Positions 309 through 57,939 of a DNA stretch of 64,000 nt are shown here, in pieces. The number at the start of each line of letters is the position of its first letter. Position 1 is the stretch's first letter. The DNA is from a virus, in the UHGV virus genome UHGV-1682877. One strand, 5' to 3'. The notes under the pieces were generated by a model. The model saw nothing but the letters and a program-made list of their open reading frames with translations. It ran no database searches and was not told the origin of the DNA. Made by a program: the position numbers and the translations under genes.

Positions 309-345
309 TTGAAAATTTAATAAAAATATTATATAATATATATAG
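309..345 (+). promoter_or_regulatory. sigma70-like promoter, member of repeated TTGAAA-N17-TATAAT-ATATATAGAAAG family
   Basis: ttgaaa 309-314, 17 nt spacer, tataat 332-337, conserved downstream atatatagaaa. Confidence 0.55.
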
Positions 346-371
346 AAAATAAAAAAGGAAGTTGAATTTAT

Positions 372-1094
372 ATGATTCCTGGTCTTTATGCAAACTATCA
401 AAAACAATGGGGCCAAAACACTATTTGGATTATTTCTGACCTTCACTTTGGCGATAAAGAATTGCAGAAGGGCATTGCTAAACGTCCTTCTGATGAACAA
501 CTTTTAAAGAATATTAACTCTTGCGTTGGTAAGAAAGATACTCTTATTGTCTTGGGTGATGTAGGCGATTTATCTTACGTCCGCAAGCTCAAAGGTTATA
601 AAGTTCTTATTAAAGGAAACCATGATGCAGGTTCTTCACTCTACCAAAGAGAAATTTTTTATAAACGTTATCCGCAAGACTACATTTCCTATAAAGGTGT
701 AAAAGCAGAAGTAAAAGAAATATTCCCTGAATATTCTTTTTCTATTGATGAAGGTTTTGGTTTTCACAATCCTTTTGATTGGTGGGAAGTAACTTTAGAT
801 AATAGACTTTTTGATGAAGTTTATGAAGGCGCATTAATTATTGGCGAAAAGCTTATTCTTTCACATGAACCTATTGCTAATATCAATTGGGCGCTAAACC
901 TGCATGGCCACAATCATTTTGGTATTCCGCATCCTGATAAATATCATTATAACTTTAATGCGGATGTGATTAATTACAAACCCATTAATCTAAATAAATT
1001 TATGAAAGAAGGTTATTTATCTAAAATTCCTTCTATTCATAGACTTACTATTGATTCAGCTACTGAAAGAAAACAAAAAAGAAAAAATAAATGA
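372..1094 (+). CDS. calcineurin-like metallophosphoesterase
   Basis: motifs ISDLHFGD, VLGDVGD, KGNHD, LHGHNH. Confidence 0.8.
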   Translation: MIPGLYANYQKQWGQNTIWIISDLHFGDKELQKGIAKRPSDEQLLKNINSCVGKKDTLIVLGDVGDLSYVRKLKGYKVLIKGNHDAGSSLYQREIFYKRYPQDYISYKGVKAEVKEIFPEYSFSIDEGFGFHNPFDWWEVTLDNRLFDEVYEGALIIGEKLILSHEPIANINWALNLHGHNHFGIPHPDKYHYNFNADVINYKPINLNKFMKEGYLSKIPSIHRLTIDSATERKQKRKNK

Positions 1095-1116
1095 TTACAA
1101 GATTTTGTAACCAAAA

Positions 1117-1153
1117 TTGAAAATTTAATAAAAATATATTATAATATATATAG
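1117..1153 (+). promoter_or_regulatory. repeated promoter family copy
   Basis: ttgaaaatttaataaaaatatattataatatatatagaaagttaaggaaag. Confidence 0.5.
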
Positions 1154-1369
1154 AAAGTTAAGGAAAGACAAAATAATATATAATATTTCTGAATGATGTA
1201 TTAAGAAAGTTTCTAAAGAGAAAACAATTAAAAGTATTCTTATACTTGGCAATATTAAATACGAAATCAAACAAAATAAAATCTCTACTTACAAGATAAA
1301 ACACAATAACCATCATTACATAATTATAAAAAGTATTGACGAGCTGATTTCAGTTGAGGAGGTATTACC

Positions 1370-56513: not shown

Positions 56514-56709
56514 ACTATATAAGGCAAACATTTATGTGGAAAATGTGTGGTATGTTTTTTTTGATTAAAAGATTTAAGCAAATTTTAGTTAATACGAGCA
56601 TAAAGCGCTTAACTGCTGAGGCAAAAGTTTGTACTGGAGAAGAATAAATTTCTGAAATGGCAAAATAAGACAAAAATATTTGGTAATCAGTAGCAAAAGG
56701 AGAAAATAT

Positions 56710-57111
56710 ATGTCTAAGTTTTATTATGGAGACAGAGTTCGCGTTTCAAATACATATGTTGTAGATAGGGCATGCGGTACTGTTGTTGGTAAAGTAAGAG
56801 CAAGGGGTGGCTACGCTCTTACTAAAGAAGGCAGTGATTCTAATAAAGAAAGTAGTGATGCTTTCAATTACTTAGTTAAATTAGATAATATTAGTTCTGC
56901 TTACTATACTATACATGGAAAAAATTGCAACTATATTTGGGGACATGCATCTGATAATGCTGATTGTATCATTGTGAAAGAAAATGAGATGGAACATTTA
57001 CAAGACTATTTTTCTAAAAATATTATACTTGAGTTCAATGAGCATACAATCACAGTAGAAAGGTTAGAAGAGTATGAACAATTTATTAAAAAAATATGCT
57101 TGTTATTTTAA
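56710..57111 (+). CDS. hypothetical protein
   Basis: ATG after RBS aaaggag. Confidence 0.4.
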   Translation: MSKFYYGDRVRVSNTYVVDRACGTVVGKVRARGGYALTKEGSDSNKESSDAFNYLVKLDNISSAYYTIHGKNCNYIWGHASDNADCIIVKENEMEHLQDYFSKNIILEFNEHTITVERLEEYEQFIKKICLLF

Positions 57112-57421
57112 TAAACAAGAAGGCCGAAGATATCCAGTTAGTAACCAAATTGTTACATGTGTATATATTACAGAAGATAAGCAAGAAGTAATTAATTATT
57201 TAAATAAAAATAATCTTTCTATTGCTAAAATGCGAAAAAATTTTATAGAATGGCAAGAAAATAATGAACATTGGATATGGCATCCAATGTCAGAAGGTTT
57301 TAGAGGTTATAGATTTTATAAAGTTAAAATATCTAAAAACTATAACAATTATGAAGTTTTAAAAACAATAATACTTCCTTGCTGTGCTAATTATTGTTGT
57401 TCTTGGGAGATAATGAAATGA
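57074..57421 (+). CDS. hypothetical Cys-containing protein
   Basis: ORF track. Confidence 0.4.
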   Translation: MNNLLKKYACYFNKQEGRRYPVSNQIVTCVYITEDKQEVINYLNKNNLSIAKMRKNFIEWQENNEHWIWHPMSEGFRGYRFYKVKISKNYNNYEVLKTIILPCCANYCCSWEIMK

Positions 57422-57891
57422 GATATGCAGCTATAAAAGAAAATGATATTGCAAATGGCCCAGGAGTAAATGTTTCTTTTTGGGTACAAGGTTGTAAAAA
57501 TCATTGTACAGATTGCCAAAATCCTGAAACTTGGTCATTTACTGGCGGTAAAGAATTTACAAAAGATACATTAAATAATCTTTTTAAAGCATTAAAAGCA
57601 AATGGAATAAATAGAGATTTAAGTATTCTGGGCGGAGAACCGCTCTGCCCAGAAAATATTCCTATTACTAAATATATAATTCAACAAGTAAAAGAAAAAT
57701 ATCCAGAAACTAAAATTTATTTATGGTCTGGTTATTATTATGATGAATTAGTCAAAAATAAGGAAATAAAAGAAGAAATTTTTCCTTATTTAGATATATT
57801 GGTGGATGGGCCTTACATTAATTCGCAAAGAGATATTACTTTAAAATGGCGAGGTTCCCGCAATCAAAATATTATTTACTTGAAAAAATAA
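57418..57891 (+). CDS. nrdG: anaerobic RNR activating protein (radical SAM, NrdG)
   Basis: MRYAAIKENDIANGPGVNVSFWVQGCKNHCTDC. Confidence 0.8.
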   Translation: MRYAAIKENDIANGPGVNVSFWVQGCKNHCTDCQNPETWSFTGGKEFTKDTLNNLFKALKANGINRDLSILGGEPLCPENIPITKYIIQQVKEKYPETKIYLWSGYYYDELVKNKEIKEEIFPYLDILVDGPYINSQRDITLKWRGSRNQNIIYLKK

Positions 57892-57939
57892 ATAATATAT
57901 GTTATAATTATTTAAAGAAATAAATTAAGGAGTTCTTAA

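What the first reader, a model, noticed from the sequence alone, without database searches (positions are those of the whole stretch)
309..57910. More than 20 copies of one extended promoter motif
TTGAAA-N17-TATAAT followed by conserved ATATATAGAAAGTTAAGGAAAG recurs upstream of most early and middle genes (e.g. 309, 1117, 4250, 9386, 10190, 18291, 20812, 20898, 21148, 25408, 27930, 39545, 43065, 49738, 57890, and one minus-strand copy near 63850). The conserved block downstream of the -10 box includes the start region and part of the RBS, implying selection beyond sigma binding. Translating it yields the artefactual N-terminal extensions in track ORFs 18252 and 27914.
Basis: seen in the sequence. 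Interest (0 to 1): 0.4.

Follow-up and report, generated by a model that had tools for sequence, protein, structure and literature searches.

The report
Repeated strong phage promoter-leader cassettes
About two dozen near-identical copies of a strong bacterial-type promoter with a short purine-rich leader head the early, replication and tRNA transcription units of an uncultured gut or rumen phage; this kind of phage regulatory repeat is well known, here seen in an undescribed phage lineage.

Summary
A position-weight scan finds 20 strong copies (leave-one-out 20-61 bits) and 4 weaker ones. All lie on the + strand between 309 and 57930. Shuffled sequence never exceeds 8 bits, and the best minus-strand hit is 13.7 bits. 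The cited minus-strand "copy" near 63850 is not a copy.

The consensus is aaTTGAaa-TTTaAAAAAAtaTrTGa-TATAAT-ATATAT-A(+1)GAAArTTAAGrAArGG. Each part matches a known feature of housekeeping sigma-A promoters in Firmicutes:
- a -35 hexamer and a 17-nt spacer;
- the TRTG "-16" motif and a -10 hexamer;
- an AT-rich discriminator;
- a T(-1)A(+1)G(+2) start element 7 nt after the -10;
- an AG-rich initial transcribed region running into a Shine-Dalgarno sequence.

The first 12 nt after the -10 are equally conserved whether or not a start codon follows, so they belong to the promoter. The next 16 nt are more conserved when one does, so they are partly ribosome-binding site.

The same unit, including an exact 23-mer, recurs in more than 120 stretches of related IMG/VR contigs. 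Proteins in those contigs are only 30-55% identical to the window's. The motif is nearly absent from late-gene regions.

Copies are gained and lost at orthologous genes. Four of ten rearrangement breakpoints against a 95%-identical relative touch a copy, which resembles T4-type PeSL cassettes.

Verdict: an ordinary kind of element and a new member; interest is low to moderate.

The parts
309..359 (+). Promoter-leader copy: TTGAAA, 17-nt spacer, TATAAT, then ATATATAGAAAATAAAAAAGGA. Start codon at 372 (metallophosphoesterase).
   Evidence: Leave-one-out score 52 bits. Terminator 237-264 lies upstream.
1117..1167 (+). Promoter-leader copy with the exact 22-nt block. No start codon follows; the untranslated leader runs about 215 nt to ATG 1370.
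   Evidence: Leave-one-out 59 bits. In the 95% relative the same leader abuts the ATG of the 1872 homologue, so window 1183-1877 is an inserted two-gene cassette.
4250..4300 (+). Promoter-leader copy: TTGACC, TG-extended -10. Start codon at 4312 (557 aa). The -35 lies in the 3' arm of hairpin about 4224-4258.
   Evidence: Leave-one-out 32.7 bits.
7288..7338 (+). Promoter copy (TTGATT) followed by hairpin 7342-7378, then ATG 7401 (M28-like peptidase).
   Evidence: Leave-one-out 32.1 bits.
9385..9435 (+). Promoter-leader copy (TTGAAT). Start codon at 9444.
   Evidence: Leave-one-out 54.4 bits.
10178..10228 (+). Promoter-leader copy: TTGAAA, TG-extended -10. Start codon at 10243.
   Evidence: Leave-one-out 56.2 bits. 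The right breakpoint of a 270-bp indel against the relative lies 3 nt upstream, at 10175.
10552..10602 (+). Promoter copy heading the first tRNA cluster (tRNA-Ile at 10813). The leader has no SD.
   Evidence: Leave-one-out 43.8 bits.
11344..11394 (+). Promoter copy (TTGACT, TG-extended) immediately upstream of tRNA-Leu 11399.
   Evidence: Leave-one-out 20 bits.
11607..11657 (+). Promoter-leader copy within the tRNA region. A small ORF starts at 11662, then tRNA-Asn at 11876.
   Evidence: Leave-one-out 47.7 bits.
18291..18342 (+). Promoter-leader copy (TTGGAA, 18-nt spacer) directly after terminator 18251-18281. Start codon at 18354.
   Evidence: Leave-one-out 49.2 bits. It explains the spurious N-terminal extension of ORF 18252.
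20812..20862 (+). First of two tandem promoters. It has the exact 22-nt block and no start codon.
   Evidence: Leave-one-out 60.9 bits. The right breakpoint of a 2.1-kb cassette replacement against the relative is at 20810.
20897..20947 (+). Second tandem promoter. Start codon at 20957.
   Evidence: Leave-one-out 53.5 bits.
21148..21198 (+). Promoter copy heading the second tRNA cluster (tRNA-Leu at 21264). The leader is shortened (ATTTAAGGAAAGAC).
   Evidence: Leave-one-out 25.1 bits.
25402..25452 (+). Copy without a -35. The T-tail of terminator 25379-25401 occupies that position. Start codon at 25480 (89 aa, weak winged-helix match).
   Evidence: Leave-one-out 48.1 bits. This unit is absent from relative L158; the breakpoint is at 25465.
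27924..27974 (+). Copy without a -35, directly after hairpin about 27888-27926. Start codon at 27986 (metallophosphoesterase).
   Evidence: Leave-one-out 56.2 bits. It explains the spurious extension of ORF 27914.
33590..33640 (+). Weaker copy after terminator 33550-33584. A non-coding leader follows, then ATG 33869 (RNase H).
   Evidence: Leave-one-out 24.7 bits.
34037..34087 (+). Weaker copy inside the 3' part of the RNase H gene, upstream of the topoisomerase II subunit gene at 34185.
   Evidence: Leave-one-out 23.5 bits.
39544..39594 (+). Promoter-leader copy (TTGATT). Start codon at 39603.
   Evidence: Leave-one-out 29 bits.
39801..39851 (+). Consensus -35/-10 (TTGAAA, N17, TG-extended TATAAT) with a diverged downstream block. 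Start codon at 39926.
   Evidence: (15.6 bits).
40903..40953 (+). Promoter copy with TACAAT as -10. A hairpin lies in the leader; start codon at 41009.
   Evidence: Leave-one-out 44.8 bits.
43059..43109 (+). Weak copy. TTGACT lies in the 3' arm of terminator hairpin about 43034-43070. The leader is short, with GTG 43101.
   Evidence: (13.5 bits).
49732..49782 (+). Copy with a poor -35 (TTTAAA). Leader AAGAAAGGTGTGAT, then TTG 49783 (DNA polymerase III alpha).
   Evidence: Leave-one-out 29 bits.
57880..57930 (+). Consensus -35/-10 with a diverged downstream block. Start codon at 57940.
   Evidence: (17.9 bits).

Best explanation
These are strong promoters read by the host's housekeeping RNA polymerase (sigma-A/sigma-70 type, Bacillota host). 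They head the early, nucleotide-metabolism/replication and tRNA transcription units of a large uncultured phage.

**Inferred mechanism**
- Sigma region 4 binds TTGAxx.
- Sigma region 3 binds the TRTG/TG motif just upstream of the -10.
- Sigma region 2 binds TATAAT.
- The alternating-AT stretch from about -16 to -1, including the ATATAT discriminator, melts easily.
- Transcription starts at the A of T-A-G, the 7th base after the -10.
- The purine-rich initial transcript AGAAAG... favours escape.

**The leader.** In most copies the roughly 26-nt leader (AGAAAGUUAAGrAArGG) carries an A-rich extended Shine-Dalgarno sequence. It is complementary to the extreme 3' tail of 16S rRNA. A 30S subunit would therefore dock within about 15 nt of the 5' end. 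That would give efficient translation and probably protect the 5' end from 5'-exonuclease, as with STAB-SD and polypurine 5' stabilisers. Where no start codon follows, the leader is kept as a start-less SD or folds into a 5'-proximal hairpin.

**Shown and inferred.** The motif architecture, distribution, registration and lineage-wide conservation are shown. The polymerase identity, the TSS, and the stability and translation roles are inferred.
For: **Architecture**
- Copies have -35/-10 at 17 nt, often with TG.
- In 259 non-redundant related sites selected only on the two hexamers, other positions are conserved. Upstream of the -10: T 0.92 at -5, T 0.94 at -3, G 0.57 at -2, which is TRTG. Downstream: ATATATAGAAA at 0.5-0.87 per position.
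- A(+1) lies 7 nt after the -10, with T at -1 (0.85) and G at +2. This fits the YRR start element, the AT/AG-rich discriminator and the AG-rich ITR reported for Firmicutes (PMC12641261).

**Distribution**
- All copies are co-oriented with the genes.
- The start codon lies 29-37 nt after the -10 in 61% of 160 related sites.
- The motif is almost absent from fourteen 20-kb late-gene loci of relatives.
- No sigma or RNA polymerase gene is found among the window's ORFs.

**Registration**
- The first 12 nt after the -10 carry 12.0 bits with a start codon and 11.1 bits without one.
- Positions 13-28 carry 9.3 bits with a start codon and 5.0 bits without.
- The same 34 nt carry 22.4 bits when anchored on the -10 and 15.2 bits when anchored on the ATG.

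**Leader**
- A GAAAGG-type SD occurs in 8/12 promoter-proximal starts in the window and 124/154 in relatives, against 19/61 internal genes. Predicted duplex energy with the 16S tail is equal or better.
- Long leaders have a stable hairpin in the first 45 nt in 32% of cases, against 14.5% for shuffles.

**Orthologous comparison.** Between 95%-identical genomes the TTGA, the -10 and the start block stay fixed while the spacer varies.
Against: - There is no TSS or expression data, and the host is unknown. MAG labels are inconsistent.
- Five copies lack both a good -35 and TG. They may be weak or need an activator.
- An exact 23-mer is conserved across phages with 30-55% protein identity. That is tighter than the general compositional preferences of Firmicute promoters would require.
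- When only the first 6 nt are considered, the 5'-hairpin enrichment is modest: 12% against 7.7%.
Confidence: 0.8

Rival explanations
1. The units are mobile regulatory cassettes like the PeSLs of T4-type phages. On this view their near-identity is maintained mainly by recombination between copies, within and between related phages. That recombination also shuffles the genes they flank. Selection on each base would play a smaller part. This is not exclusive of promoter function.
For: - Promoter presence is not conserved at orthologous genes.
- Against a 95%-identical relative, 4 of 10 rearrangement breakpoints (1182, 10175, 20810, 25465) lie within 15 nt of a copy.
- One event inserted a two-gene cassette exactly between a leader and its start codon.
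- Seven of 23 copies are fused to a terminator hairpin, and in two of these the -35 lies inside the stem.
- The definition of PeSL is taken from PMC2839356.
Against: - Viable breakpoints must fall in intergenic DNA, and promoters occupy much of it. With an intergenic-only null the 4/10 coincidence is not significant (my estimate).
- Information content drops sharply to zero outside -37..+16. That points to boundaries set by function rather than by random duplication.
- Spacer differences between relatives look like AT-repeat slippage as much as conversion.
Confidence: 0.25
2. The invariant block around and after the -10 is the recognition site of a phage-encoded regulator. The block would be the palindromic ATAT-TATAAT-ATAT stretch and/or the leader AGAAAGTTAAGG. 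The regulator could be a repressor that shuts off early transcription. It could also be a RegB- or RegA-like factor that cleaves or masks early ribosome-binding sites.
For: - The exact 23-mer is kept in phages with only 30-55% protein identity.
- The leader is kept in copies that have no start codon.
- The -10 region forms 14-16-bp perfect palindromes, read directly from the sequences.
- A small winged-helix-like ORF follows one copy (weak: E = 0.0036).
Against: - Every conserved segment already has a sufficient explanation in polymerase or ribosome contacts.
- Palindromy is an automatic by-product of alternating AT.
- No regulator has been identified.
Confidence: 0.12
3. The motif is the promoter of a phage-encoded RNA polymerase or alternative sigma factor, not of the host housekeeping enzyme.
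For: - Copy-to-copy identity is very high and extends past +1, as in T7-type promoters.
- Only 64 kb of a roughly 138-kb or larger genome was examined.
Against: - The copies have canonical TTGACA-like -35, 17-nt spacing, TRTG and TATAAT.
- No polymerase or sigma gene is found in the window.
- The motif drives the genes expected to be expressed first.
Confidence: 0.04

Closest known systems
Housekeeping sigma-A promoters of Firmicutes (TTGACA-17-TRTG-TATAAT, AT/AG-rich discriminator, Y-R-R start element, AG-rich initial transcribed region; Kuo et al. 2025, PMC12641261)
   Same: All of these elements are present in register. The predicted TSS is a purine 7 nt after the -10, with T at -1.
   Different: The phage copies are far more uniform than chromosomal promoters. 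Spacer, discriminator and leader are nearly fixed. Some copies lack a -35.
PeSL (promoter-early stem-loop) cassettes of T4-type phages (Arbiol et al. 2010, PMC2839356; Comeau et al. 2014, PMC4122927)
   Same: Both are repeated strong sigma-70-like early promoters with SD and start codon at the 3' end. Both are often combined with terminator hairpins. Both sit at the boundaries of indels and replacements between close relatives.
   Different: The host is Gram-positive-type and the phage lineage is unrelated. A stem-loop is present in only about 7 of 23 copies, and it is upstream rather than within the promoter. There is no G/C-tract stem. Recombination is not demonstrated.
[quoted passage not shown] 1998; T4 and T5 from my own knowledge)
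   Same: Many copies of a near-consensus host-polymerase promoter, plus strong ribosome-binding sites, are clustered in the early region of a large lytic phage.
   Different: The sequences differ in detail. There is no experimental timing here.
STAB-SD and polypurine 5' mRNA stabilisers of Bacillus (Agaisse and Lereclus 1996; Hue et al. 1995, as cited in PMC3997798; hbs mRNA, PMC5737220)
   Same: An SD-like polypurine sequence lies a few nucleotides from the predicted 5' end. It is sometimes not followed by a start codon (1152-1167, 20847-20862).
   Different: Function is untested here. In most copies the SD is simply the gene's own RBS.

Membership tests
Sigma-70/sigma-A housekeeping promoter (Firmicute type) | -35 hexamer resembling TTGACA and -10 hexamer TATAAT, separated by 17 +/- 1 nt | tested here: met
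   Eighteen of 23 copies have TTGAxx or TTGGxx at 17-18 nt. The -10 is TATAAT in 22 copies and TACAAT in 1. Five copies lack a good -35.
Sigma-70/sigma-A housekeeping promoter (Firmicute type) | TRTG / TG extended -10 (-16 region) | tested here: met
   In the window, T is present in 23/23 and G in 13/23 copies at the expected positions. In 259 related sites the frequencies are T 0.92, R, T 0.94, G 0.57.
Sigma-70/sigma-A housekeeping promoter (Firmicute type) | Purine start 7-8 nt after the -10 within a Y-R-Y/R element, with AT/AG-rich discriminator and AG-rich ITR | tested here: met
   The sequence T(-1)A(+1)G(+2) is at the 7th base. Conservation is 0.85 / 0.87 / 0.51 in relatives. Compared with PMC12641261.
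Sigma-70/sigma-A housekeeping promoter (Firmicute type) | Transcription actually initiates there with host holoenzyme | not testable with these tools
   No TSS or in vitro data are available, and the host is uncultured or unknown.
PeSL-type mobile promoter/terminator cassette | Strong early sigma-70-like promoter with SD and start codon at its 3' end, repeated many times | tested here: met
   (start codon mode 33 nt after the -10).
PeSL-type mobile promoter/terminator cassette | Stable stem-loop (terminator) as an integral part of the element | tested here: inconclusive
   Seven of 23 copies follow or overlap a terminator hairpin. The rest have none.
PeSL-type mobile promoter/terminator cassette | Indel and replacement breakpoints between close relatives fall in the elements; recombinant mini-circles form | tested here: inconclusive
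   Four of 10 breakpoints are within 15 nt of a copy. This is not clearly above an intergenic-only expectation. Mini-circles are not testable.
STAB-SD / polypurine 5' stabiliser | SD-like polypurine sequence close to the mRNA 5' end, able to act without a following start codon | tested here: met
   AGAAAGTTAAGGAAAG lies at predicted +1..+16. It is start-less at 1152-1167 and 20847-20862, and in about 24% of related seed sites. This is conditional on the inferred TSS.
STAB-SD / polypurine 5' stabiliser | Increases mRNA half-life by blocking 5'-exonuclease (RNase J1) | not testable with these tools
   This requires half-life measurements.
Single-subunit phage RNA polymerase promoter (T7-like) | A roughly 23-bp block from -17 to +6 without a -35/-10 bipartite structure, plus a phage RNA polymerase gene | tested here: not met
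   The structure is bipartite and sigma-type. No polymerase gene is found among the window ORFs.

The most novel reading that the evidence does not exclude
The promoter-leader unit is a portable recombination cassette shared across a large, uncultured clade of 100-200-kb gut and rumen Bacillota phages. In this reading it would be a Gram-positive counterpart of the T4 PeSLs. Its invariant leader may in addition be the target of a phage-encoded regulator that times early shut-off.
Probability: 0.2. Interest if true: 0.5.

Novelty: new member of a known kind. Interest (0 to 1): 0.3.

Why it matters
- **Operon map.** The copies give a ready-made map of transcription units for an uncultured phage lineage that is abundant in gut and rumen viromes.
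- **Gene-start corrections.** They correct at least two gene starts (18354 and 27986).
- **Host range.** They point to a Bacillota host whose sigma-A reads the phage early genes.
- **Synthetic part.** The unit is a compact, very strong promoter-plus-leader candidate for low-GC Gram-positive and anaerobic chassis.
- **Evolution.** If the cassettes also mediate recombination, they would explain how accessory genes are exchanged in this clade.

None of this changes current understanding of phage transcription.

Tried and rejected
- **Close cultured relative.** Megablast of 8 kb against GenBank phages found only 40-nt tRNA matches. tblastn of the DNA polymerase gave at best 39% identity, to SPbeta-like phages. 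There is no cultured relative.
- **Known cis-regulatory RNA.** Rfam at gathering threshold found only tRNAs, so no known cis-regulatory RNA explains the leader.
- **Host identification.** A genome-contig scan for the 23-mer gave 37 hits. Most lie on 130-180-kb contigs in MAGs with inconsistent labels: Eubacterium, Erysipelotrichaceae, Oscillospiraceae, Mollicutes and even Methanobrevibacter. The one isolate hit is Massiliimalia (L140). It lies in a region with a helicase, a resolvase and a group I intron, so it is a mobile element rather than a host housekeeping promoter.
- **5'-terminal pairing.** Pairing of the first 6 nt is only weakly enriched, 12% against 7.7%. The looser test (a hairpin within 45 nt) is clearer.
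- **Gene conversion among spacers.** Differences between the window and its 95% relative cluster in the spacer, but they are equally explained by AT-repeat slippage. I do not claim conversion.
- **Minus-strand copy at about 63850.** Rejected.
- **Failed run.** A fuzzy-regex ortholog search timed out and was replaced by local alignment.
- **Literature.** A search found no prior description of this motif.
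Full report
**Context**

The window is about 30% G+C. Genes run on the + strand up to about 60.3 kb, followed by a short minus-strand module that includes a holin.

The + strand block encodes:
- small ORFs of unknown function;
- three metallophosphoesterases and peptidases, two of the peptidases with SLH domains;
- a GIY-YIG endonuclease;
- radical-SAM proteins;
- a Ro-like RNA-binding protein and an RNA ligase;
- PhoH, RNase H, topoisomerase II subunits and DNA ligase;
- ThyX, a DnaB-like helicase, primase, RecJ and a Dda-like helicase;
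- DNA polymerase III alpha, guanylate kinase, NrdD and dUTPase.

There are also 17 tRNA genes in two clusters. No sigma factor or RNA polymerase was found. There is no close cultured relative. The nearest sequence is IMG/VR contig IMGVR_UViG_3300045988_145614 (137.7 kb), at about 95% nucleotide identity.

Yes.
- The bare pattern TTGAAA-N17-TATAAT with up to 1 mismatch occurs 19 times, against 5.2 +/- 2.3 in shuffles.
- The 22-mer downstream block with up to 3 mismatches occurs 6 times, against 0 expected.
- A 58-column weight matrix built iteratively gives 24 peaks above 12 bits on the + strand, 20 of them above 30 bits. The - strand gives a single 13.7-bit peak. One hundred shuffles never exceed 8 bits. 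Leave-one-out scores of the 20 strong copies are 20-61 bits.
- Information content is confined to about -37..+16 relative to the inferred start. It falls to zero on both sides.

I add eight more. The minus-strand site near 63850 lacks a -35 and has the wrong register, so it is not a copy.

The two "N-terminal extensions" are real artefacts. The long ORFs from 18252 and 27914 read through a terminator and/or the promoter. In-frame ATGs at 18354 and 27986 carry proper SD sequences.

**Anatomy**

The consensus is aaTTGAaaTTTaAAAAAAtaTrTGaTATAATATATATAGAAArTTAAGrAArGG.

To avoid circularity I selected 259 non-redundant sites in related contigs using only the two hexamers. I excluded any site with the 23-mer that had been used to fetch the loci. 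Positions that were not selected on are still conserved:
- Just upstream of the -10: T 0.92, R, T 0.94, G 0.57. This is the TRTG "-16" motif typical of Gram-positive promoters.
- In the spacer: a T-run after the -35 followed by an A-run.
- Downstream of the -10: A .82, T .72, A .55, T .80, A .76, T .85, A .87, G .51, A .85, A .84.

The 7th base after the -10 is the conserved A, flanked by T(-1) and G(+2). A 49-genome TSS study describes the same layout (PMC12641261). It reports a Y-R-Y/R "start" element 7-8 nt after the -10. The YRR form is enriched in Terrabacteria. It also finds AT- or AG-rich discriminators in Terrabacteria and AG-rich initial transcribed regions in Firmicutes. Its spacer has four regions with an AT-tract next to the -35. 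So the "extended" conservation is largely the known architecture of a very strong Firmicute sigma-A promoter.

**Promoter part versus RBS part**

I selected sites with the upstream half of the matrix only and split them by whether an SD plus start codon follows within 40 nt.
- The first 12 nt after the -10 (ATATATAGAAAr) carry 12.0 bits with a start codon and 11.1 bits without one. They belong to the promoter and start site.
- Positions 13-28 carry 9.3 bits against 5.0 bits. They are partly RBS.
- The same 34 nt carry 22.4 bits when aligned on the -10 and only 15.2 bits when aligned on the ATG. The block is registered to the promoter.

Among 160 unique related sites with the exact 23-mer, 61% have a start codon 29-37 nt after the -10 (mode 33), which gives a leader of about 26 nt. 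About 24% have none within 84 nt. Those run into tRNAs, start-less leaders or hairpins.

Promoter-proximal SDs are mostly of the A-rich type GAAAGG/AAAGGA: 8/12 in the window and 124/154 in relatives. They pair with the extreme 3' tail of 16S rRNA. Internal genes mostly use GGAG/GAGG (42/61). Predicted duplex energy is equal or better for the leaders (the 16S tail sequence is the B. subtilis type, from my own knowledge).

Long leaders contain a stable hairpin within the first 45 nt in 32% of cases, against 14.5% for shuffles, and most hairpins begin within 10 nt of the predicted 5' end. A stricter test on the first 6 nt is only weakly positive.

These features fit the two known ways of protecting Firmicute mRNA 5' ends. 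One is a ribosome bound at a 5'-proximal SD (STAB-SD, the polypurine stabiliser, hbs mRNA; PMC3997798, PMC5737220). The other is a 5'-terminal stem-loop. Function is inferred, not shown.

**Distribution and evolution**

- The exact 23-mer TATAATATATATAGAAAGTTAAG occurs in at least 120 stretches of IMG/VR contigs, many of them 100-198 kb.
- It also occurs in 37 stretches of GTDB genomes. Most are 130-180-kb contigs in gut or rumen MAGs with inconsistent labels, so they are probably mis-binned phages.
- These contigs encode homologues of the window's proteins at only 30-70% identity. The unit is therefore conserved across a deep clade.
- Fourteen 20-kb loci centred on a late gene of relatives contain 0-2 hits each. 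The window's early region has about one copy per 2.5 kb.
- Promoter presence is not conserved at orthologous genes. For example, homologues of the 372 gene at 54% identity sit inside operons without a promoter.

Against the 95% relative I found seven rearrangement events with ten visible breakpoints. Four breakpoints lie within 15 nt of a copy: 1182, 10175, 20810 and 25465. At 1182, a 695-bp two-gene cassette is inserted exactly between a leader and the start codon that it serves in the relative. This explains the start-less leader at 1152-1167.

Seven of 23 copies are fused to a terminator hairpin. In two of these the -35 lies inside the descending stem, and in at least two others the terminator's T-tail replaces the -35.

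This recalls the PeSL cassettes of T4-type phages (PMC2839356, PMC4122927). However, viable breakpoints must be intergenic and promoters fill much of the intergenic DNA. The coincidence is therefore not statistically compelling.

Between the two close genomes the TTGA, the -10 and the start block are invariant, while the AT-repeat spacer varies. That fits constraint on the contact elements and slippage in the spacer.

**Mechanism**

Most likely (0.8): these are host sigma-A-dependent strong promoters that fire early. The TSS is at the A 7 nt after TATAAT. The short polypurine leader provides the RBS and probably 5'-end protection.

Rivals:
- recombination-maintained mobile cassettes (0.25; not exclusive of the main reading);
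- a phage regulator site in the block (0.12);
- a phage polymerase or sigma promoter (0.04).

Chance or low complexity is excluded.

**Comparison and novelty**

Repeated near-consensus early promoters with class-specific extensions are classic in T4, T5 and SPO1 (SPO1; T4 and T5: my own knowledge). Composite promoter/terminator cassettes are known as PeSLs. This is a new member of a known kind, in an undescribed phage lineage of probable Bacillota hosts.

The clues to the host are:
- strong SD usage;
- the TRTG motif;
- SLH-domain proteins;
- NrdD;
- one occurrence in a mobile element of Massiliimalia.

I found no prior description of this motif.

Noticed in passing
window 11491, 12057, 13021, 13414, 21195, 21858, 22554 (+ strand): A recurrent word, (A/T)AGACAC(A/T)T-ACAGCAA(A/T), sits 10-30 nt after the 3' ends of tRNAs, or right after a promoter, and ahead of tRNAs or tRNA-like fragments. 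ACAGCAAW occurs 16 times against 6.6 expected, and 7 of the occurrences are in the two tRNA clusters. The same word follows promoter copies in many related contigs. It may be a processing signal or the 5' end of a small RNA.
   Followed up: partly
window 11489-11596, 22526-22735 and 22735-27037: There is a sub-threshold Rfam match to Y RNA-like YrlA (26.6 bits, E = 0.01, gathering score 69) at 11489-11596. A tRNA-like fragment (T-arm plus ACCA) and a conserved hairpin (TCTCTCTTGCCTAAGAGAGA) lie just upstream of a Ro-like RNA-binding protein gene (22735-24258). An RNA ligase gene follows at 25760-27037. Together these suggest a Ro/Y-RNA plus RNA-repair module. The 157-bp tRNA-like piece (22526-22682) is absent from the 95% relative.
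   Followed up: partly
window 13040-13112: ARAGORN reports a tRNA with a four-base anticodon (tgaa) and no assigned amino acid; Rfam scores it as a tRNA at 53 bits. It may be a frameshift-suppressor-like or atypical tRNA.
   Followed up: no
window 12359-13006: A GIY-YIG endonuclease gene with an HTH-like region is embedded in the tRNA cluster. It is probably a homing endonuclease.
   Followed up: no
window 18698-20809: A cassette with a radical-SAM protein (18794-20053) and a 249-aa ORF is replaced in the 95% relative. The replacement is a different radical-SAM gene (36% aa identity) followed by cysteine-rich sequence. The swap is bounded by the stop codon of the 18354 gene on the left and by promoter 20812 on the right.
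   Followed up: partly
window 24313-25374 and 32415-33215: Two phage peptidases, one subtilase-like and one C39-like, carry S-layer homology (SLH) domains. This is a clue that the host has an SLH-binding cell wall, as in Clostridia, Bacilli and Negativicutes.
   Followed up: no
window 7342-7378 and 33550-33584: Two copies of a long perfect hairpin have the same core, ACTCACCAAAGGTGAGT. One lies just after promoter copy 7288 and the other just before promoter copy 33590. This looks like a repeated, apparently bidirectional terminator.
   Followed up: no
L167 5440-5760, 7990-8020, 9170-9230 (late module of the 95% relative; corresponds in part to window 63290-63400, minus strand): Intergenic regions of the minus-strand and late modules share other words: (A)ATTGGGAA(A), TAGATTAAT and AAGGTGTACTTT / AAAGTACACCTT. 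The sigma-A-type motif is absent there. These may be a different promoter class, possibly late.
   Followed up: no
L140 5134-5331 (Massiliimalia massiliensis NZ_FUHT01000003.1): A group I intron (Rfam 62.7 bits) lies next to a resolvase and a helicase. The same region carries one exact copy of the 23-mer promoter block. It is probably an integrated mobile element or prophage in a cultured Oscillospiraceae isolate, and so a possible lead to hosts.
   Followed up: partly
L075 (orthologue of window 1117-1145): In the 95% relative this promoter has a 19-nt spacer, because of two extra bases in the A-run/TGA region. It is either a weakened promoter or a homopolymer assembly error.
   Followed up: no
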